Shown in pieces: positions 681-17,908 of a stretch of DNA of 64,000 nucleotides; the stretch's first letter is position 1; every line of letters begins with the position of its first letter. The position numbers and the translations under genes are program-made. Source of the DNA: an uncultured Actinomycetota bacterium (lineage in GTDB: Bacteria; Actinomycetota; Actinomycetes; Actinomycetales; Dermatophilaceae); contig CAVVPX010000002.1 in the NCBI GenBank assembly GCA_963750305.1, positions 616,845-680,844 of the forward strand, given 5' to 3'. The notes under the pieces are model-generated. The model saw nothing but the letters and a program-made list of their open reading frames with translations, had not been told where the DNA came from and did not search any database.

Positions 681-3143
681 GTGAGCACCGCCCTGTACCG
701 CCGCTACCGGCCCGAGACGTTCGCCGACGTCATCGGGCAGGAGCATGTCACCGAGCCGCTCATGCAGGCACTGCGGACGGGGCGGGTCAACCACGCCTAC
801 CTCTTCTCGGGCCCGCGCGGGTGCGGCAAGACCTCCAGCGCCCGCATCCTGGCGAGGTGCCTCAACTGCGAGCAGGGGCCAACCCCCGAGCCCTGTGGCA
901 CGTGTGACTCGTGCGTCGCGCTCGCGCGCGGTGGGTCGGGCACGGTCGACGTCATCGAGATCGATGCCGCCAGCCATGGTGGTGTCGACGATGCCCGTGA
1001 CCTGCGCGAACGCGCGTCCTACGGCCCCGCCCAGAGCCGGTTCAAGGTGTACATCATTGACGAGGCGCACATGGTGACGCCGCAGGGTTTCAACGCGTTG
1101 CTCAAGATCGTCGAGGAGCCGCCGGAGCACGTGAAGTTCATCTTCGCGACGACCGAGCCCGAGAAGGTCATCGGCACGATCCGCTCGCGCACCCACCACT
1201 ACCCGTTCCGCCTCGTCCCGCCCGCGCGGCTGCAGGGCTACCTCGAGCAGCTGTGTGCCGCCGAGGATGTGGCGGTCGCGCCGGGGGTGCTCTCGTTCGT
1301 CGTCCGCGCGGGCGGCGGGTCGGTCCGGGACTCACTCTCGGTCCTTGACCAGCTGATCTCGGGGTCCGGCGCGGACGGCTTGACCTATGAGGGTGCCGCT
1401 GCCCTGCTCGGCTTCACCGGCGGCGAGCTGCTCGACGCCACGATCGACGCGTTCACCGCGGGCGACGCGGCCGGGGTGTTCCACCAGGTCGACCGCGTCA
1501 TCGACACCGGGCTCGACCCGCGCCGGTTCGTCGAGGACCTCCTCGAACGGCTGCGCGACCTCATCGTCATCGCCGCTGTTCCCGATGGCGCCGCGTCGGT
1601 CCTCCGGTCGCTGCCGGTTGACCAGCTCGACCGGATGCGCCAGCAGGCGGCCGCTTTCGGCCAGGCGTCGCTGTCTCGTGCGGCCGACCTGGTCAACGCG
1701 GGCCTGACCGAGATGACCGGAGCCACCGCTCCGCGGCTCCAGCTCGAGCTGATCTGTGCGCGCGTGCTGCTGCCCGGGGTGTCAGGGGAGCAGGGGTACG
1801 CCGCCCGCCTGGACCGGCTCGAACGCCGCCTCGACGTGGGCGGGGTGCCGTCCCAGGCCCGCACGCCTGCGGGGGCAGCGCCTGCGGGGGCACCGCCTGC
1901 CGCTGCGCCGACTGCGGCTGCGCCGACGGCGGCGGGTCCGACGGCGGTGGGGCCGACGGCGGTGGATCAGCGCGGAATGGATCAGCGCGGGGTGGATCAG
2001 CGCGGCGTGGATCGGCCGACCGCCGAACGCAGCAAATCCACACCCCCGTCCGCGCCTGCCGTTCCGGCCGTGGTGGAGCCCGTCGAGGAGCCGCGATCTG
2101 ATCGGCACGAGCCGCCACCGGAGGACCTCTGGCCGCCGGATGAGCAGGTCGAGGCCGCCCAGCTCGGGGACGTTGCGCCTGAGGTCGTTGCCCCGACGCC
2201 CCCGCCCGGTGGGGGGATCGACACCGCGGCGATCCGCCGCTCCTGGCCGGACGTGCTCGCCGCGATCTTCGGGCTCAAACGCGCGACCTGGACGTTCCTG
2301 TCCGAACACGCGCAGGTCCTGGACTACGACGGCCAGCGGTTGCTGCTCGGGATCTCCACCGTCGGGTTGGCCAACACGTTCCGTCGAGGTCAGCACGCAG
2401 AGCTGGTGCGCCAAGCCCTGGTCGACGTCCTCGGGGTGGACGTCCGGGTCGAGGGGGTTCCGACGACCGACGCCGGCCCGCGCGGTGGCCCGGAGGGCGG
2501 GTCTCGCGGGGGACCGGATTCCGGTTCCCGCGGTAGGTCGGGCGTAGGCCCCAGCGGTGGGCAGGGCGCAGGCCCCAGCGGTGGGACGGGCGCAGGCCCC
2601 AGCGGTGGGCAGGGCGCAGGCCCCAGCGGTGGGTCGGGTGCAGGCCCCAGCGTTAGGACGGGCGCCGGGCCCAGCGGTAGGACGGGCGGCGGTCCCGGTG
2701 GCGTCCCCTCCGAGTCTGCCCAGACCCGCGGGACGGCTGCGCCGACCCCTGCCGCGGCCGCTCCGGACCGTCGTGCGTTCGCGCCGGAGTCGACCTCGGA
2801 CTGGGCCAGCGGCCCGGCCCATGATGCAGCGCCGTCCTGGGCCACCGACCCCGGGCGGGGGCGCGCCGGCGGGCCGTCCGCACCGGCGGGGGCCGAACAC
2901 CAGAGGGCCGACGCCCCACGGGCCGACCCCCAGCAGGCCCACGGTCCGCAGACGGGCTCGCCCCTCGCTCGAGCCCGCGCCGAGGTCGCCGGCGAACGCC
3001 CCGTCGAGCCGGATGCCCCCCAGGTGGCCGACGACTCAGTCGTGAGCGTCGACGACGAGAACATCGAGGACGCCGGGGACGTGGGTCAGCCGGTCTTTGA
3101 GCGCCTGCTCGGCGGCCGGGTCATCGACGACGGCGCTTCCTGA
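681..3143 (+). CDS. dnaX: DNA polymerase III subunits gamma/tau
   Basis: N-terminus MSTALYRRYRPETFADVIGQEHV, Walker A GPRGCGKTS, zinc module CNCEQGPTPEPCGTCDSC, SRT motif RSRTHHY. Long Pro/Ala/Gly-rich linker precedes a conserved C-terminal domain. Confidence 0.95.
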   Translation: MSTALYRRYRPETFADVIGQEHVTEPLMQALRTGRVNHAYLFSGPRGCGKTSSARILARCLNCEQGPTPEPCGTCDSCVALARGGSGTVDVIEIDAASHGGVDDARDLRERASYGPAQSRFKVYIIDEAHMVTPQGFNALLKIVEEPPEHVKFIFATTEPEKVIGTIRSRTHHYPFRLVPPARLQGYLEQLCAAEDVAVAPGVLSFVVRAGGGSVRDSLSVLDQLISGSGADGLTYEGAAALLGFTGGELLDATIDAFTAGDAAGVFHQVDRVIDTGLDPRRFVEDLLERLRDLIVIAAVPDGAASVLRSLPVDQLDRMRQQAAAFGQASLSRAADLVNAGLTEMTGATAPRLQLELICARVLLPGVSGEQGYAARLDRLERRLDVGGVPSQARTPAGAAPAGAPPAAAPTAAAPTAAGPTAVGPTAVDQRGMDQRGVDQRGVDRPTAERSKSTPPSAPAVPAVVEPVEEPRSDRHEPPPEDLWPPDEQVEAAQLGDVAPEVVAPTPPPGGGIDTAAIRRSWPDVLAAIFGLKRATWTFLSEHAQVLDYDGQRLLLGISTVGLANTFRRGQHAELVRQALVDVLGVDVRVEGVPTTDAGPRGGPEGGSRGGPDSGSRGRSGVGPSGGQGAGPSGGTGAGPSGGQGAGPSGGSGAGPSVRTGAGPSGRTGGGPGGVPSESAQTRGTAAPTPAAAAPDRRAFAPESTSDWASGPAHDAAPSWATDPGRGRAGGPSAPAGAEHQRADAPRADPQQAHGPQTGSPLARARAEVAGERPVEPDAPQVADDSVVSVDDENIEDAGDVGQPVFERLLGGRVIDDGAS
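1896..2015 (+). repeat. Two families of in-frame 15-bp tandem repeats inside dnaX
   Basis: gc(g/t)gcgccgac(t/g)gcg-type units encode AAPTA/AGPTAV. They are followed by ggatcagcgcggnnt x3, encoding (M/V)DQRG. Confidence 0.8.
2541..2684 (+). repeat. In-frame 24-bp tandem repeat x6 inside dnaX
   Basis: Units ggcgcaggccccagcggtgggcag with few substitutions, encoding GAGPSGG(Q/T/S). A degenerate seventh unit follows. Confidence 0.85.
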
Positions 3144-4977: not shown

Positions 4978-5415
4978 TCAGCGACCCGCCAGCTGACTCG
5001 CCAGGCGGTCGAGATCCTTGGTCATGGCCCGCCTCATGGCTTTTGCCATCACGGGTGCAGCGACGGTCGAGAACCCACTTGGCGTTCCTCGGTTGCGCAA
5101 CCTCATCAAGGTGCCACCCGGGACGTCCTCCCACGTGTACGTCGTCTCCATGGGGAACGGCCCGCTCGAAGTGCGCATGACAAGTCGACGGCCTGGCTCC
5201 AGTGCCTCCACCCGGTAGGTGTAGACCAACCGGCGACCGAGGAACTTGGCCGTGAAGTCGAGCAGCGACCCGACAGCGATCGGCGGCTGACTGCGCCAGC
5301 TCACGGACTGGATGTTGGTGTACCACTGGGGCGCGTTGGTCGGGTCGCCTGCGTAGGCGGCCACCTCCTCAGCTTGAAGCGGAAACAGCCTCTCGACCTC
5401 TACGTCGACCTGCAT
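4978..5415 (-). CDS. SRPBCC family protein (polyketide cyclase/dehydrase-like)
   Basis: MQVDVEVERLFPLQAEEVAAYAGDPTNAPQWY... is a typical START/Bet v1-like N-terminus. ATG at 5415 was chosen over the longer ORF start at 5514. Confidence 0.75.
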   Translation of the reverse strand: MQVDVEVERLFPLQAEEVAAYAGDPTNAPQWYTNIQSVSWRSQPPIAVGSLLDFTAKFLGRRLVYTYRVEALEPGRRLVMRTSSGPFPMETTYTWEDVPGGTLMRLRNRGTPSGFSTVAAPVMAKAMRRAMTKDLDRLASQLAGR

Positions 5416-5680
5416 GGAACTCAGTATGGACGGCCGCTTGGCGCGCGAGGCAGAGATCAGGCTCGACCTGTGTGTCGGCACGACCTCGGGGATCACGCCA
5501 GTCCGGCGCCGCACCTCGTTCGCGAGGGAAACCCGACTTCAGTCCTCTTCCCGAGCCCTGCACCCGCCTGGGTCCGACCCGCCCGGCTCCGACCCGCCGT
5601 GCGCGCGGTGGAGACCGCCGTTCCGGCTCGTCGATGTGCGGCGACCGTGCGACCCGGTGGTCTGACCCACAGCCGGGCGG

Positions 5681-5726
5681 ATCGCGTGGTCGAGGGTGCA
5701 ACGGTGCGCACCCTCGACCACGCGAT
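5681..5726 (-). terminator. Perfect 19-bp stem hairpin downstream of the secreted-protein gene
   Basis: ATCGCGTGGTCGAGGGTGC (5681-5699) pairs with GCACCCTCGACCACGCGAT (5708-5726). It lies 33 nt after the minus-strand stop at 5759. No U-tract. Confidence 0.45.
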
Positions 5727-13316: not shown

Positions 13317-14402
13317 ATGCCCCGACTGGGCGTGGTCGGTGCGACGGGCACTGTCGGAGACGTCCTGCTGCGGCTGTTGCCCCTGCGGGCCGACTGTTGG
13401 GGAGAGGTGCGACTGATCGCCACCGGACGGTCCCAGGGTCAGGTCCGACGGGTCATCGGCACCGACGTACCCGTGGTGCAGCTCAGCCGCGAGTCGCTCG
13501 CCGGCCTCGACGTCGTGGTGTTCCTGACCCCGCCGGACGTCGTCCGCGAGTGGGCGGCGACTGCGGTCGAGCTGGGGGCCGTGGTCGTCGACAACAGCGG
13601 CGCGCACCGCCGTGACCACTCGGTCGCACTGATCGCCCCGCAGGTCAACCCGGCCCACCTGCGCGACCGGCCGACCGGGATGGTGGCGACACCCAGCGCG
13701 ACGACGCTCACCCTGATCGACTCCCTCGGCGCGCTCCACGCCGGGTGGGAGCTCACCGACGTCGTGATCGCGACCTACCAGGCGGCCACGGGCACCGGGC
13801 GCGTCGGCGTCGAGCGCCTGCTCGACGAGGTCGAGGTCGTGGCGGCCAACCGCGGACTCGGTCGACTTGCGGGCGACGTGCGAGCCGTCGTCATGGACAA
13901 GCTCGGCGAGGACTCGCCGTTCCCAGCTCCCCTGGCCCTCAACGTGATTCCGTGGTCGGGGGTCGCAGAGGACGACGACGGGTGGACCAGCGAGGAGGTC
14001 GAGGTCCGTGAGGAGATCCGCCGGCTGCTGGGCCTGCCGGCCCTGAACGTCTCGGTCACGCTGGTCCAGGTCCCGGTGGTCGCGGCGCACTCCGCCGTCG
14101 TCCATGCCCGGTTCGCCCGCCCGGTCCCGGTCGCCGATGCCCGCCAGGCCCTGGTCGAGGCACCCTCGGTGGTGGTCATGGACGACGGTGAGCACGGCGA
14201 GATCCCCACCCCGGTCGACGCGGTCGGGTCCGACCCGGTCTTCGTCGGCCGGATGCGCCAGACCGTGGGCAACCCCCACGCCCTCGACTTCTTCGTCACC
14301 GGTGACAGCCTGCGCGCCGGATCTGCCCTCGCCGTGATCCGGGTGGCCGAGCTCATCGCGGCCGACCTCACGAACCACCGCCCCCCGCCGTCTTCCTCGT
14401 GA
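13317..14402 (+). CDS. asd: Aspartate-semialdehyde dehydrogenase-like protein lacking the catalytic Cys
   Basis: MPRLGVVGATGTVG Rossmann N-terminus, YQAATGTG and AAHS motifs. The canonical PNCTT block reads PSATT. Alternative GTG starts at 13290 and 13302. Confidence 0.75.
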   Translation: MPRLGVVGATGTVGDVLLRLLPLRADCWGEVRLIATGRSQGQVRRVIGTDVPVVQLSRESLAGLDVVVFLTPPDVVREWAATAVELGAVVVDNSGAHRRDHSVALIAPQVNPAHLRDRPTGMVATPSATTLTLIDSLGALHAGWELTDVVIATYQAATGTGRVGVERLLDEVEVVAANRGLGRLAGDVRAVVMDKLGEDSPFPAPLALNVIPWSGVAEDDDGWTSEEVEVREEIRRLLGLPALNVSVTLVQVPVVAAHSAVVHARFARPVPVADARQALVEAPSVVVMDDGEHGEIPTPVDAVGSDPVFVGRMRQTVGNPHALDFFVTGDSLRAGSALAVIRVAELIAADLTNHRPPPSSS

Positions 14403-14430
14403 ACGCCCACCCGCGTCCCTGAGGAGAGAC

Positions 14431-14970
14431 ATGAGCACCCGCCACGCCGTCGTGGACACCGCGATCGGACCGTTGACCGTGGTCCGAGACGACCACGGCC
14501 TGACCGGGATCTACTTCCCCGGCCACTGGACCCGCCCGGACGAGCTGGCCTGGGGCGACCGGGTCTCCGGCGGTGACGCCGATCTGCTCGACGCCGACCT
14601 GCTCGACGCCGATCTGCTCGACGCCGTCACGCAGGTGCACGAGTACCTCGCCGGTGCCCGCCGCGAATTCGACCTGACCCTCAACCCACACGGAACCGCG
14701 CGGGCCCGTCAGCTCTGGACGCTGCTCAGCCAGATCCCCTATGGCCGGACCACGACCTACGGGGCACTGGCAGCCGAGCTCGGTGGCGGCGTCAGCGCGC
14801 GTGCGGTCGGCGGTTTCGTCGGCCACAACCCGATCTCGATCGTGGTGCCGTGCCATCGCGTCGTCGGCGCGACGGGCAAGCTCACCGGGTACGCCGGCGG
14901 GTTGGAGCGCAAGGAGCACCTCCTCGCGCTGGAGGGCGCGGTGCCGGCCCCGACCCCCGCGCTGTTCTAG
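14431..14970 (+). CDS. ogt: Methylated-DNA--protein-cysteine methyltransferase
   Basis: Active site IVVPCHRVVGATGKLTGYAGG. Confidence 0.9.
   Translation: MSTRHAVVDTAIGPLTVVRDDHGLTGIYFPGHWTRPDELAWGDRVSGGDADLLDADLLDADLLDAVTQVHEYLAGARREFDLTLNPHGTARARQLWTLLSQIPYGRTTTYGALAAELGGGVSARAVGGFVGHNPISIVVPCHRVVGATGKLTGYAGGLERKEHLLALEGAVPAPTPALF
14575..14625 (+). repeat. In-frame 15-bp tandem repeat x3.4 inside ogt
   Basis: gacgccga(t/c)ctgctc repeated, encoding DADLL DADLL DADLL DA. Confidence 0.85.
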
Positions 14971-14972
14971 TC

Positions 14973-15512
14973 GTGGTGCCGCCCACCGCGCGGTCCACCT
15001 GGCCGGCGTCCAAGGAGCCGTTCGAGGCGGTGGTCACCCGGCACGGACCGATGGTGCTGCGCGTGGTGCGGGCGGTGCTCGGCCCGGACGAGGCCGACGA
15101 CGCCTGGTCGGAGACCTTCCTCGCCGCGATGCGCGCCTATCCCGACCTGCCTGCCGATGCGAACGTCGCGGCCTGGCTGGTCACCATCGGCCACCGCAAA
15201 GCGGTCGATGTGGTCCGCGCCGCCGCCCGACGGGCCGCACCGGTCCAGGACGTTCCGGATTCCGTTGCCCCGCAACGGGCCGATGCGCGAGACCTCGACC
15301 TCGCGTCGGCGGTCGCCGCGCTGCCGCCCAAGCAGCGGCAGGCCGTGGCCTACCACTATCTCGCCGGGCTCCCGTATGCCGAGATCGGACCCCTGCTCGG
15401 CAGCAGCGAGGCGGCCGCGCGCCGGTCCGCCGCCGACGGGATCGCCGCGCTCCGGCGCACCCATCCGGACCTCACCGCCGCCGACGGCGGACCGAAGGAG
15501 AACCTGCCATGA
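14973..15512 (+). CDS. ECF-type sigma-70 family RNA polymerase sigma factor
   Basis: Region 2 (DDAWSETFLAAMRAY..AAWLVTIGHRKAVD) and region 4 (LPPKQRQAVAYHYLAGLPYAEIGPLLGSSEAAARRS). GTG start lies 3 nt after the ogt stop. Confidence 0.8.
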   Translation: MVPPTARSTWPASKEPFEAVVTRHGPMVLRVVRAVLGPDEADDAWSETFLAAMRAYPDLPADANVAAWLVTIGHRKAVDVVRAAARRAAPVQDVPDSVAPQRADARDLDLASAVAALPPKQRQAVAYHYLAGLPYAEIGPLLGSSEAAARRSAADGIAALRRTHPDLTAADGGPKENLP

Positions 15513-16114
15513 CCCCCACCGACCTGACGACGGCATACCCCGTGCCTGAGGTCGACCTGGCCCGGCTGCAGACCCGCCTCGCGGGCGCGGCCGACGCCGA
15601 TGGACTGCTGGACGTCGGCTACCGCACGCTGGACACCCCGGTCGGCGCCCTCCTGTTGGCCGCCACCCCGGCAGGACTGGTGCGCGTCGCGTTCGCCGGC
15701 GAGGGCCACGACACCGTGCTGCAGACCCTGAGCGAGCAGATCAGCCCGCGGCTGCTGAACGCGCCTGCGCGCCTCGACGAGGTCGCCCGCCAGCTCGACG
15801 ACTACTTCGCCGGCCGCCGCCAGCGGTTCGACCTGCCGCTGGACTGGCAGCTCTCCCGCGGCTTCCGCCGCACCGTCCTGGGTCACCTCGCGACCGACAT
15901 CGGCTACGGCGCCACCGCCTCGTATGCCGTCCTGGCCAACCTCGCGGGGAGCCCGAACGCCGTGCGTGCGGTCGGGACCGCCTGCGCCACCAACCCGATC
16001 CCGGTCGTCGTCCCGTGTCATCGCGTGGTGCGCTCGGACGGCTCGATGGGTGGATACCGCGGGGGCCCGGATGCGAAGCGGGTGCTGCTCCACCTCGAGG
16101 GTCACGCGGCCTGA
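15509..16114 (+). CDS. Methylated-DNA--protein-cysteine methyltransferase paralog
   Basis: ATGA overlap with the sigma gene, SD GAAGGAG. Active site VVVPCHRVVRSDGSMGGYRGG. Confidence 0.85.
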   Translation: MTPTDLTTAYPVPEVDLARLQTRLAGAADADGLLDVGYRTLDTPVGALLLAATPAGLVRVAFAGEGHDTVLQTLSEQISPRLLNAPARLDEVARQLDDYFAGRRQRFDLPLDWQLSRGFRRTVLGHLATDIGYGATASYAVLANLAGSPNAVRAVGTACATNPIPVVVPCHRVVRSDGSMGGYRGGPDAKRVLLHLEGHAA

Positions 16115-16151
16115 CGTCTCAGCTGGCCAACGCGGCTCGTCGGGCGCCTAG

Positions 16152-16577
16152 CTAGCTGGACGGCGGACTCACGGGCTCGGGCTGCCACTCGCGCCGGAGC
16201 AGGCCGTACACCCAGGAGTCCGACACCTCGCCGCCCACGATGCAGTCCTCCCGCAGCGTCCCCTCGCGCTGGAACCCGAGCTTCTCCAGCACGCGGCCGC
16301 AGGGCAGGTTGCGGGTGTCGGCCTCGGCCTGCACCCGGTTCAGGTCGAGGGTGTCGTAGGCCCAGCCCAGCAGCGCGCGCCCGGCCTCCGTCGCGACGCC
16401 CTGCCCCCAGACCGCCTCGGCGAAGCAGAGGGTCAGGGTCGTGCTGCGGTACTCCGGGGTCCACCGCGACAGGGCGCACCAGCCGACGAACGCCCCGTCT
16501 GACGCCCGGTCGACGGCGAGGCGCAACCGGACACGGTCGGTGCGCATGGTCGGGGTCGGCAGCGGCATACGGGCCAT
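16152..16577 (-). CDS. GNAT family N-acetyltransferase (RimJ/RimL-like, short)
   Basis: WGQGVATEAGRALLGWAY...LNRVQAEADTRNLPCGRVLEKLGF. The N-terminal part is shorter than usual. Confidence 0.7.
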   Translation of the reverse strand: MARMPLPTPTMRTDRVRLRLAVDRASDGAFVGWCALSRWTPEYRSTTLTLCFAEAVWGQGVATEAGRALLGWAYDTLDLNRVQAEADTRNLPCGRVLEKLGFQREGTLREDCIVGGEVSDSWVYGLLRREWQPEPVSPPSS

Positions 16578-16677
16578 CGTGCCGCAGCGTCCGCATGGCA
16601 GGCGGGCGCACCTGGCGCGCGCGGCGACCTCATAGGGTGGTGCCGATCACTTTTCGACCCCTGCTGGAGGTACTCCC

Positions 16678-17908
16678 ATGACCGTTCGCACCGTGGCCAT
16701 GCTGACCGCAGGCGGGCTCGCCCCCTGCCTGTCCTCGGCCGTCGGCGGCCTGATCGAGCGGTACACCGAGATCGCCCCTGACGTGCGGATCATCGCCTAC
16801 CGCAACGGGTACGCCGGTCTGCTCACGGGCGACTCGGTCGAGGTCACCCCCGAGGTGCGCGAGAAGGCCGCGCTCCTGCACCGCTTCGGCGGCAGCCCCA
16901 TCGGCAACAGCCGGGTCAAGCTGACCAACGTCAAGGACTGCGTGAAGCGTGGCCTGGTCAAGGAGGGGCAGGACCCGCTGCACGTTGCGGCCGAGCAGCT
17001 CACCCAGGACGGCGTCGACGTGCTGCACACGATCGGCGGGGACGACACCAACACCACTGCGGCCGACCTCGCGGCCTACCTCGGGTCGAACGACTACCCG
17101 CTCACCGTGGTCGGGCTGCCCAAGACCATCGACAACGACGTGGTCCCGATCCGTCAGTCCCTCGGCGCATGGACCGCGGCCGAGCAGGGTGCGATCTTCG
17201 CTCGCAACGTGATCGCCGAGCACACGTCCAACCCCCGCATGCTCGTCGTGCACGAGGTCATGGGTCGCAACTGCGGCTGGCTCACTGCCGCCACCGCCAA
17301 GGCGCACCACGACTGGGTGACCTCGACGGAGTTCTCCGGTTGGCTCGACAACGACTCACGCACCTGGGACGTGCACGGCGTGTACGTCCCCGAGCAGCCG
17401 TTCGACATCGCCGCCGAGGCCGCGCGTCTCCGAGCGGTGATGGACGAGTTCGACAACGTGACCATCTTCCTGTCCGAGGGCGCCGGCCTGAACGAGGTCG
17501 TCGCCGAGCTGGAGGCCAGCGGTGCGGACGTCCCCCGCGACCCGTTCGGCCACGTGCAGCTCGACAAGGTGAACCCGGGGGCGTGGTTCGCCAAGCAGTT
17601 CGCCAAGCAGCTCGGTGCGGACAAGGTCCTGGTCCAGAAGTCCGGATACTTCTCGCGGTCGGCGGCGGCCAACGACGCCGACCTCGCGCTGATCCGCGAG
17701 TGCACCGACAAGGCCGTCGACTGTGCCCTCGAGGGCGTGTCGGGTGTGGTCGGACACGACGAGGAGCGCGGTGACGAGCTGCGGGCGATCGAGTTCCCGC
17801 GCATCAAGGGCGGCAAGGAGTTCGACCCCCTCCACCGCGTGGTTCGCCGAGCTGCTCGCGGACATCGGTCAGGCCCAGAGCAGCGAGGCCGGCGGGCCTA
17901 CAGCTTGA
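16678..17908 (+). CDS. pfp: Pyrophosphate/ATP-dependent 6-phosphofructokinase; needs a 1-nt frame correction at C-run 17826-17830 (ORF as read ends at 18021)
   Basis: MLTAGGLAPCLSS, GGDDTNTTA, GLPKTIDNDV motifs. The expected C-terminus STAWFAELLADIGQAQ is in the +1 frame after FDP. Confidence 0.8.

What the first reader, a model, noticed from the sequence alone, without database searches (positions are those of the whole stretch)
14431..16114. ogt / ECF sigma / ogt-paralog trio: sigma factor translationally coupled to an alkyltransferase
Three tightly packed genes lie on the same strand. The first is a standard Ogt (PCHRV). The second is a minimal ECF sigma (regions 2 and 4 only) starting 3 nt after the ogt stop. 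The third is a second MGMT-fold protein, also PCHRV, whose ATG overlaps the sigma stop (ATGA, SD GAAGGAG). No recognisable anti-sigma factor (ZAS, RskA or TM type) is adjacent. ECF sigmas are almost always co-encoded with their cognate regulator. A suicide alkyl-acceptor protein in that slot therefore suggests an Ada-like adaptive response, in which Cys alkylation of the MGMT paralog controls sigma availability. Actinobacteria generally lack the classic Ada AraC-type switch. I do not know of experimental work on this pairing.
Basis: inference. Interest (0 to 1): 0.6.

Follow-up and report, generated by a model that had tools for sequence, protein, structure and literature searches.

The report
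Sigma factor coupled to Ogt repair
A small alternative sigma factor is encoded between two single-use DNA-alkylation repair genes and seems to switch on only its own three-gene operon; the pairing is already catalogued (ECF group 122), and the second repair protein is the best, still untested, candidate for the damage sensor that restrains the sigma factor.

Summary
ogt1 (14431-14970), a minimal ECF sigma (14973-15512) and an N-terminally extended ogt2 (15509-16114, ATGA overlap) form one tight operon with no recognisable anti-sigma gene.

The sigma-to-ogt2 pair is deeply conserved:
- 80/80 related loci have it, and the ogt2 start overlaps the sigma stop in 78/78 complete loci.
- 74/75 sigma-positive genomes in a 401-genome sample of the phylum have it.

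ogt1 varies in position or is absent.

An ECF-type promoter, CTCAC-N17-CGTCT, precedes the operon in 72/81 loci and precedes 19/23 divergent ogt1 genes. In this genome the operon copy (14367-14393, inside the 3' end of asd) is the only strong site. The regulon therefore looks like the operon itself.

Ogt2 keeps every catalytic and DNA-binding residue. It adds a conserved N-terminal helix whose presence tracks sigma adjacency.

The association is already published as group ECF122, with mechanism unknown. The claim that Actinobacteria generally lack Ada is inaccurate: 139/401 genomes have an Ada zinc domain. This genome does lack it.

Verdict: a new member of a known, uncharacterised kind, of moderate interest.

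The parts
14364..14398 (+). Predicted ECF-type promoter of the operon. The -35 core CTCAC is at 14367-14371, followed by a 17-nt spacer and the -10 CGTCT at 14389-14393. It lies inside the last codons of asd (stop at 14400-14402). The predicted transcription start is at about 14399-14402.
   Evidence: CTCAC-N17-CGTC is found in 72/81 upstream regions, always with a 17-nt spacer; the best motif in shuffled sequences reaches 9. A weight matrix built without the window scores this site 25.5 bits, the top site in the 3.72-Mb genome; the next scores 15.2 bits.
14431..14970 (+). ogt1: canonical two-domain O6-alkylguanine-DNA alkyltransferase, 179 aa, PCHRV. It carries a lineage-specific DADLL x3 repeat insert.
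   Evidence: Pfam PF02870 and PF01035; TIGR00589. Orthologues occur in 61/80 loci, in variable position and orientation.
14973..15512 (+). ECF (group 4) sigma factor, 179 aa, with regions 2 and 4 only and no cysteine.
   Evidence: Pfam Sigma70_r2 and Sigma70_r4_2; TIGR02937. It is 60-76% identical to 80 loci across actinobacterial genera. Conservation is shown.
15494..15500 (+). Shine-Dalgarno sequence GAAGGAG for ogt2, inside the 3' end of the sigma gene.
   Evidence: Read directly from the sequence.
15509..16114 (+). ogt2: sigma-linked MGMT subfamily, 201 aa. It has an extra N-terminal helix (residues 14-30), an intact PCHR site (Cys170), the Arg153 finger, Tyr139, Asn162, Tyr183 and Glu197. 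Its ATG overlaps the sigma stop (ATGA).
   Evidence: Pfam. Alignment to M. tuberculosis OGT. AlphaFold2 model with pLDDT 91.7 and pTM 0.85. TM 0.86 to PDB 4wxc. Clade conservation. Overlapping start in 78/78 loci.

Best explanation
This is a self-contained, autoregulated alkylation-repair operon of the ECF122 type.

Shown:
- ogt1, the sigma gene and ogt2 are one translationally coupled unit.
- The unit is preceded by a conserved ECF-type promoter (CTCAC-N17-CGTCT).
- In this genome that promoter has no other good copy.
- Both Ogt proteins look catalytically complete.
- The sigma-to-ogt2 order and start/stop overlap are essentially invariant across the phylum, whereas ogt1 is movable.

Inferred:
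- The operon's own sigma recognises that promoter, giving positive feedback.
- Ogt2, made 1:1 with the sigma, binds it and keeps it off RNA polymerase, using its clade-specific N-terminal helix and its unusually conserved N-domain.
- When Ogt2 repairs an O6-alkylguanine, the irreversible alkylation of Cys170 destabilises it. This is known to happen to alkylated alkyltransferases.
- The sigma is then released and transcribes the operon. That makes bulk repair enzyme (Ogt1) and fresh Ogt2, which recaptures the sigma once lesions are gone.
- Basal expression could come from read-through from ask-asd, since no terminator lies between them and the operon.
For: - Gene identities.
- Pair conservation: an ogt2-like gene lies directly downstream in 80/80 loci. 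Start/stop overlaps are -4 (54 loci), -14 (21), -8 (2) and -11 (1), in 78/78 complete loci.
- Phylum sample: 74/75 sigma-positive genomes, covering up to 53 genera, have ogt2 adjacent on the same strand. The 75th has a frameshifted copy.
- Weaker sigma homologues (29-40% identity) lie upstream of ogt2-like genes in most further loci fetched.
- Promoter: present in 72/81 loci with an invariant 17-nt spacer, against at most 9 in shuffles. It also precedes 19/23 divergent ogt1 genes at a fixed 25-28 nt from the start codon. It is retained in a clade with a 35%-identical sigma and a leaderless start (L102). It is unique in the own genome, 25.5 bits against 15.2.
- Ogt2-specific constraint: the extra helix H14-30 is modelled at pLDDT about 90. 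Similarity to that helix occurs in 16/16 loci with a sigma (15) or a sigma remnant (1) upstream, against 5/16 where the similarity is absent (Fisher p = 7e-5). The N-domain is 69% identical pairwise, against 54% for Ogt1 in the same genomes. Catalytic and DNA-binding residues are conserved in every intact sigma-linked copy examined.
- No Ada zinc domain in this genome. The module is under-represented in Ada-positive genomes: 13/76 against 126/325, p = 3e-4, not corrected for phylogeny.
- In other lineages AlkB, Oxygenase-NA and Tag genes are coupled downstream of ogt2.
- Precedents: the MGMT-fold C-domain of Ada is the contact site for RNA polymerase, and an Ada-sigma interaction is documented (PMC4437013).
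- The literature lists ECF122 with conserved MGMT genes and no anti-sigma factor, mechanism unknown.
Against: - There is no direct evidence of sigma-Ogt2 binding.
- No anti-sigma domain is detectable in Ogt2. The extension is a single helix, much less than a class I anti-sigma domain.
- No genuine sigma-MGMT fusion was found. The apparent ones are frameshift artefacts.
- A pseudo-multimer fold could not be set up.
- That the operon's own sigma reads the conserved promoter is an inference from co-occurrence.
- In G230 (same family) the sigma has decayed to a 28-codon remnant while ogt1 and ogt2 stay intact. Ogt2 therefore has value without the sigma, which also fits a plain enzyme.
- Translational coupling and fixed gene order also occur between genes that do not interact.
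Confidence: 0.5

Rival explanations
1. Ogt2 is only an output. The sigma drives expression of two alkyltransferases with different substrate ranges, and its activity is set elsewhere: by read-through from ask-asd, by its own turnover, or by an unlinked regulator. The N-terminal helix and conserved N-domain of Ogt2 would serve DNA repair, for example cooperative DNA binding, and not sigma binding.
For: - Ogt2 keeps every catalytic and DNA-binding residue and a canonical fold.
- It is retained intact where the sigma has decayed (L084).
- No anti-sigma domain is detected.
- Several ECF groups are known to be controlled transcriptionally, without an anti-sigma factor (PMC8999054).
- No terminator separates asd from the operon.
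Against: - It does not explain why ogt2, but not ogt1, is locked to the position directly after the sigma gene with an overlapping start across the whole phylum.
- It does not explain why the helix tracks sigma adjacency.
- An autoregulated sigma whose only target is its own operon needs a brake, and no other candidate is encoded nearby.
Confidence: 0.3
2. Ogt2 is an Ada-like positive co-factor. Alkylated Ogt2 binds the sigma or RNA polymerase and is required for transcription from the operon promoter, rather than unalkylated Ogt2 inhibiting it.
For: - In E. coli the MGMT-fold C-terminal domain of Ada provides the contact with RNA polymerase, and methylated Ada activates transcription (PMC4437013).
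- The same coupling and co-occurrence data fit this model as well.
Against: - ECF sigma factors are normally active once free, so an obligatory activator would be unusual.
- Stoichiometric co-translation is the hallmark of sigma/anti-sigma pairs.
- Ogt2 has no sequence-specific DNA-binding domain such as the AraC helix-turn-helix or N-Ada.
Confidence: 0.1
3. The adjacency has no functional meaning and is chance packing of unrelated genes.
For: None beyond the absence of experiments.
Against: The pair is conserved in 80/80 loci and in 74/75 sigma-positive genomes of a phylum-wide sample, with a shared promoter.
Confidence: 0.01

Closest known systems
ECF sigma group ECF122 (Casas-Pastor et al. 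2021, PMC7826278; summarised in the 2022 review PMC8999054, whose example is WP_057211282.1 from Cellulomonas sp. Root930)
   Same: A minimal ECF sigma from Actinobacteria with no cognate anti-sigma factor. 6-O-methylguanine DNA methyltransferase is the conserved neighbour and is proposed as a possible regulator. The mechanism is listed as unknown.
   Different: No difference in kind is evident. This report adds the promoter motif, the single-operon regulon, the universal start/stop overlap, the Ogt2-specific helix and the status of ogt1 as a regulon member. Formal assignment with the ECF Hub HMMs could not be run.
E. coli Ada adaptive response (N-Ada zinc methyl acceptor, AraC-type helix-turn-helix and C-Ada MGMT domain)
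   Same: The logic is the same. Irreversible self-alkylation of a repair protein would switch on more alkylation-repair genes through a positive feedback loop. An MGMT-fold domain contacts the transcription machinery (PMC4437013).
   Different: - There is no Ada_Zn_binding domain and no AraC helix-turn-helix, either here or anywhere in this genome.
- The proposed sensing cysteine is the O6-alkylguanine acceptor, not the phosphotriester acceptor.
- Output runs through a dedicated sigma factor, by release from inhibition, not through an activator bound to DNA.
Thiol-sensing zinc anti-sigma factors such as RsrA/SigR and RshA/SigH (own knowledge of the family)
   Same: A cytoplasmic partner is co-transcribed directly after an autoregulated ECF sigma. 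Covalent modification of the partner's cysteines releases the sigma.
   Different: - Ogt2 has no anti-sigma domain and no HxxxCxxC zinc motif.
- The modification would be an enzyme-catalysed, irreversible alkyl transfer from DNA, not reversible oxidation.
M. tuberculosis ada operon (AdaA-AlkA fusion plus Ogt; own knowledge)
   Same: An actinobacterial inducible alkylation-repair operon containing an Ogt with the same fold. Ogt2 is 38-39% identical to MtOGT, TM 0.83-0.86.
   Different: - It is regulated by an Ada-type zinc domain rather than a sigma factor.
- MtOGT lacks the N-terminal helix.
- All five sigma-positive genomes of one genus (g9) in the sample carry both systems; related loci are named Mycobacterium.

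Membership tests
ECF (group 4) sigma-70 family | Only regions sigma-2 and sigma-4 are present, with no regions 1.1 or 3; size about 20 kDa. | tested here: met
   179 aa. Pfam Sigma70_r2 (residues 21-87) and Sigma70_r4_2 (109-153) only. TIGR02937 scores 58.9 bits against a cut-off of 42.9.
ECF122 | A conserved 6-O-methylguanine DNA methyltransferase gene in the immediate neighbourhood. | tested here: met
   80/80 related loci and 74/75 sigma-positive genomes have it.
ECF122 | No cognate anti-sigma factor is encoded next to the sigma gene. | tested here: met
   The neighbours are asd, the two ogt genes and a GNAT gene. No anti-sigma Pfam family matches 40 Ogt2 orthologues at E <= 10.
ECF122 | Assignment by the ECF Hub group HMM, or similarity to the group's reference sequences. 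| not testable with these tools
   Neither the ECF Hub models nor the reference WP_057211282.1 are available here. Membership is inferred from context and taxonomy.
O6-alkylguanine-DNA alkyltransferase (Ogt/MGMT), applied to Ogt1 and Ogt2 | A PCHR active-site cysteine with the His-Glu network, an arginine finger, Tyr and Asn of the binding pocket, and a two-domain fold. | tested here: met
   - Ogt2: C170, H171, E197, R153, Y139, N162 and Y183 all align with MtOGT residues and are invariant in the clade.
- Ogt2 model: TM 0.83-0.86 to PDB 4wxd, 4wxc and 4bhc.
- Ogt1: both Pfam domains and PCHRV.
- Enzymatic activity was not tested.
Class I anti-sigma factor (anti-sigma domain or zinc anti-sigma factor), applied to Ogt2 | An N-terminal anti-sigma domain of about four helices, often with an HxxxCxxC zinc motif. 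| tested here: not met
   There is only one extra helix (residues 14-30), and zf-HC2, RskA and other anti-sigma families do not match. If Ogt2 acts as an anti-sigma factor, it is not a member of this family.
Ada regulon regulator | An N-terminal Cys4 zinc methyl-phosphotriester acceptor (Ada_Zn_binding) with an AraC-type helix-turn-helix. | tested here: not met
   PF02805 is absent from the operon proteins and from the whole 3.72-Mb genome.

The most novel reading that the evidence does not exclude
Ogt2 is a consumable ('suicide') anti-sigma factor. It is a fully active DNA-repair alkyltransferase, and its own irreversible alkylation by a lesion is the signal that frees an ECF sigma. This would be a structurally new class of anti-sigma factor and an Ada-independent adaptive response.
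Probability: 0.4. Interest if true: 0.8.

Novelty: new member of a known kind. Interest (0 to 1): 0.5.

Why it matters
Inducible alkylation repair in bacteria is understood almost entirely through Ada. About a fifth of the sampled Actinomycetota genomes carry this sigma/Ogt module instead of, or alongside, an Ada-type sensor, and nobody has tested how it is switched.

If Ogt2 is the brake, the consequences would be:
- a new anti-sigma architecture;
- a case where an enzyme's single turnover is itself the signal;
- a very compact, orthogonal damage-responsive switch (one promoter, one sigma, one sensor) of use in synthetic biology.

This analysis makes the question directly testable. It supplies the promoter (CTCAC-N17-CGTCT), the predicted single-operon regulon, and the residues to mutate: Cys170 and the N-terminal helix residues L20, R23, L24 and A28.

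Tried and rejected
1. Natural sigma-MGMT fusions as 'Rosetta stone' evidence. The 1.84-billion-protein representative search gave several 250-390-aa hits containing both domains (Pfam). Their sequences contain out-of-frame stretches or internal deletions and are frameshift or assembly artefacts. Rejected.

2. Pseudo-multimer AlphaFold. One distant locus (L102) has the sigma gene and ogt2 in the same frame, separated by a single TGA (P0271). I tried to build a block alignment for it. MAFFT repeatedly aligned sigma rows onto the Ogt2 half (A2-A6). No job was submitted, because the result could not have been interpreted.

4. Search for further regulon members in the own genome. The core motif count (62) is close to expectation (45). 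The only other candidate (C3:85902, 15.2 bits) has no downstream ORF.

5. Anti-sigma-domain homology of the N-terminal extension. No Pfam signal.

6. The extra cysteine Cys159 near the active site as a possible second sensor. It is invariant in the close clade but is Leu or Met in many sigma-linked distant copies, so it is not essential to the system.

7. Supplementary tables of the ECF classification paper. They are not held.

8. Sigma-70-type promoter and intrinsic-terminator scans of 14000-16700. Nothing found.
Full report
**The observation**

The + strand between 14431 and 16114 carries three tightly packed genes.
- ogt1 runs from ATG 14431 to TAG 14970 (179 aa).
- The sigma gene starts at GTG 14973, two bases after that stop, and ends at TGA 15512 (179 aa).
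- ogt2 starts at ATG 15509, overlapping the sigma stop as ATGA, and ends at TGA 16114 (201 aa). GAAGGAG lies 8 nt upstream of its ATG.

Pfam and NCBIfam confirm the identities. Both Ogt proteins have the ribonuclease-like N-domain and the DNA-binding C-domain with PCHRV. The middle protein has only sigma-70 regions 2 and 4 and matches the ECF superfamily model.

The neighbours are ask-asd upstream and a convergent GNAT acetyltransferase downstream. No anti-sigma family matches anything here.

**Conservation of the pair**

A scan of one genome per species found 317 relatives of the sigma. The best 80 were fetched: Mycobacterium, Actinoplanes, Kitasatospora, Streptomyces, Paenarthrobacter, Amycolatopsis, Iamia and others, at 60-76% identity.
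- In all 80, an ogt2-type gene (58-75% identical) follows the sigma gene directly on the same strand.
- In all 78 loci with a complete ogt2, its start codon overlaps the end of the sigma gene: by 4 nt in 54, 14 nt in 21, 8 nt in 2 and 11 nt in 1.

ogt1 behaves differently. It abuts the sigma gene upstream in 37 loci, is divergent in 23 (13 within 400 nt, 10 further away), is downstream in 1, and is absent within 4 kb in 19.

In an even sample of 401 genomes of the phylum:
- The sigma matched at E <= 1e-25 in 76 genomes, the window's own included, from 53 genera.
- In 74 of the other 75, the best ogt2-like match lies immediately downstream on the same strand (coordinates compared by hand). The 75th has a frameshifted copy (L099).
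- Most pairs share the relative reading frame expected for an overlapping stop/start.
- Further ogt2-like genes without a strong sigma hit mostly turned out to have a weaker sigma homologue (29-40% identity) directly upstream: 13 of the first 16 fetched, and 5 of 14 more.

**The promoter**

I enumerated gapped motifs in the regions upstream of the operon. For abutting loci this was upstream of ogt1; otherwise it was upstream of the sigma gene.
- CTCAC followed by CGTC occurred in 72 of 81 sequences, against at most 9 for any motif in shuffled sequences.
- The spacer is exactly 17 nt in all 72.
- The consensus is (T/C)CTCAC(A/G)TT-N-(A/G)CGTCTAC. This has the shape of an ECF promoter.
- In Paenarthrobacter and in L102 the -10 element sits 8-12 nt before the start codon, so the mRNA is leaderless. 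That supports reading CGTCT as the -10 element.
- Where ogt1 is divergent, even 0.9-2 kb from the sigma gene, 19 of 23 copies carry their own motif at a fixed 25-28 nt from the ogt1 start. ogt1 is therefore a regulon member wherever it sits.

In the window the site is GACCTCACGAACCACCGCCCCCCGCCGTCTTCCTC at 14364-14398. This is inside the last codons of asd, about 40 nt upstream of the ogt1 ATG.

A weight matrix built without the window scores this site 25.5 bits. That is the best site in the 3.72-Mb genome. The runner-up scores 15.2 bits and has no gene downstream. In this organism the predicted regulon is therefore the operon itself. No sigma-70-type promoter and no intrinsic terminator were found between asd and the GNAT gene, so read-through from ask-asd may give basal expression.

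**What Ogt2 is**

Ogt2 aligns with M. tuberculosis OGT, E. coli Ada-C and human AGT (E about 1e-24). It keeps the active-site PCHR (Cys170), the arginine finger (Arg153), Tyr139, Asn162, Tyr183 and Glu197. These residues are invariant in the close clade and are kept in every intact sigma-linked copy from distant clades.

An AlphaFold2 model built on 40 orthologues is confident (pLDDT 91.7, pTM 0.85). It superposes on M. tuberculosis OGT with TM 0.83-0.86.

What sets the clade apart:
- An extension of about 35 residues forms a helix (residues 14-30) with invariant or nearly invariant L20, R23, L24, A28 and D35.
- The N-domain is unusually conserved. Pairwise identity is 69%, against 54% for Ogt1 in the same genomes. 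The C-domain figures are 76% and 62%.
- Among 32 MGMT loci sampled across the phylum, similarity reaching into the helix (alignment start at or before residue 24) was found in 16. All 16 have a sigma or a sigma remnant upstream. Of the 16 without such similarity, 5 have a sigma (Fisher p = 7e-5).

A second cysteine near the pocket (Cys159) is invariant in the close clade but is Leu or Met in many distant sigma-linked copies. It is not a general feature of the system.

**Biological setting**

In other lineages, further alkylation-repair genes are translationally coupled downstream of ogt2:
- AlkB-type 2OG-Fe(II) oxygenase (PF13532) in Paenarthrobacter and in L102;
- 'Oxygenase-NA' (PF09859) in 8 loci;
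- 3-methyladenine glycosylase Tag (PF03352) in L047;
- a 207-aa protein with no Pfam match in 23 loci that include named Mycobacterium genomes.

The own genome has three MGMT-superfamily genes: ogt1, ogt2 and an alkyltransferase-like protein with PWWRV in place of PCHRV. It has no Ada zinc domain.

The domain is rarer in sigma-positive genomes: 13/76 against 126/325, Fisher p = 3e-4, not corrected for phylogeny. The five sigma-positive genomes of one genus (g9) all have both systems; related loci are named Mycobacterium.

**How it most likely works**

An autoregulated sigma whose only good target is its own operon needs a brake and an input. The only proteins always made with it are Ogt2 (always, and in fixed order with an overlapping start) and Ogt1 (often).
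- The sigma has no extension and no cysteine.
- Ogt2 carries extra, sigma-correlated structure.
- Alkyltransferases are irreversibly modified and destabilised by their own reaction (established knowledge of the family).

A precedent for an MGMT fold touching the transcription machinery exists in Ada (PMC4437013).

This remains an inference. I obtained no interaction evidence, Ogt2 is not a member of any known anti-sigma family, and the assignment of the promoter to this sigma rests on co-occurrence.

The main rival is that Ogt2 is simply a second repair enzyme and the sigma is controlled elsewhere. One observation fits this. In G230, a genome of the window's own family, the sigma has decayed to a 28-codon remnant that still overlaps ogt2, and the -35 element has mutated to CTCGC, while ogt1 and ogt2 remain intact (L084). 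This also fits a dual-function Ogt2.

**What is known**

A 2022 review of non-canonical ECF sigma factors lists group ECF122 among groups without an anti-sigma factor. [quoted passage not shown] The review cites the 2021 ECF re-classification. The main text of the classification paper does not discuss it. Full-text searches found no experimental work on the pairing.

Earlier notes of this scan on other genomes reach the same reading. I had reached it independently before reading them, and I treat them as leads only. One of them, that related partners in other phyla carry a genuine anti-sigma domain fused to the MGMT, could not be tested here.

**Verdict**

The finding is real and the co-occurrence is very strong. 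The kind is already catalogued, so this is a new member of a known but uncharacterised kind.

This analysis adds:
- the promoter;
- the single-operon regulon;
- the universal overlap between the sigma stop and the ogt2 start;
- the Ogt2-specific helix and its link to sigma adjacency;
- the regulon membership of ogt1.

Interest is moderate (0.5). It would be high if Ogt2 is shown to be a consumable anti-sigma factor.

Noticed in passing
window 14575-14625 (inside ogt1): About three and a half copies of a 15-bp unit encode GDADLL-DADLL-DADLL-DA in the N-domain/linker of Ogt1. These columns are gaps in 98% of 60 orthologues, so the insert is lineage-specific and probably a recent slippage expansion.
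   Followed up: partly
L084 (G230:C1:342645-346226), about 1590-1675 on the minus strand: In a genome of the window's own family, the sigma gene between intact ogt1 and ogt2 has shrunk to a 28-codon ORF (MTTPPGPFDRV...EEDS). It keeps the sigma N-terminal motif and still overlaps the ogt2 start (GTGA). The upstream -35 element reads CTCGC instead of CTCAC, with the 17-nt spacer and CGTCTAC intact.
   Followed up: partly
L001, about 5076-5700, and 22 other loci that include named Mycobacterium genomes: A conserved 207-aa protein (MTPARNRVSPLGDVIAMTGRGAWMGNRGRLHEG...) with no Pfam match is translationally coupled, by a 4-nt overlap, to the end of ogt2. It is a candidate new member of the alkylation-repair operon. 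It is absent from the window.
   Followed up: partly
L083 1369-1704 (-), equal to G000:C3 near 1,250,000: The genome's third MGMT-superfamily gene is a 111-aa alkyltransferase-like protein with PWWRV in place of PCHRV. It lies between a ThiF/MoeB-like gene with a rhodanese tail and a UvrD-like helicase gene.
   Followed up: no
L116 (G204:C2:889200-892800), about 1045-1572 (-): An Ogt2-clade gene in a same-order genome has no sigma upstream and has lost the acceptor site: TPVHR instead of NPCHR, that is Cys170 to Val and Asn162 to Thr. It looks like a decayed or repurposed copy.
   Followed up: no
window 14364-14402: The operon promoter is embedded in the last 12 codons of asd. No terminator separates asd from ogt1. 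The asd 3' end is therefore under dual constraint, and read-through may set the basal level of the operon.
   Followed up: partly
G000:C3:85902-85936 (+): The second-best match to the promoter matrix (15.2 bits, TCTCTCACTATCCATCGGGGACCGACGTCTTGCTT) lies in an AT-richer stretch with no ORF of 80 aa or more starting downstream on that strand.
   Followed up: partly
L102 (G344:C49), about 1585-1640 (-): In a distant clade, the sigma gene and ogt2 do not overlap. They are in frame, separated by one TGA and 36 nt. That spacer holds a second, degenerate copy of the promoter motif (CTCAC-N17-CGAC) and an AGGAG. An alkB gene overlaps the ogt2 stop.
   Followed up: partly
proteins P0124, P0180, P0238, P0267 (representative library): Predicted 'sigma-MGMT fusion' proteins in public metagenome gene calls are frameshifted read-throughs. 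This is possible because the ogt2 frame stays open far upstream through the sigma gene; in the window it is open from 14741.
   Followed up: yes
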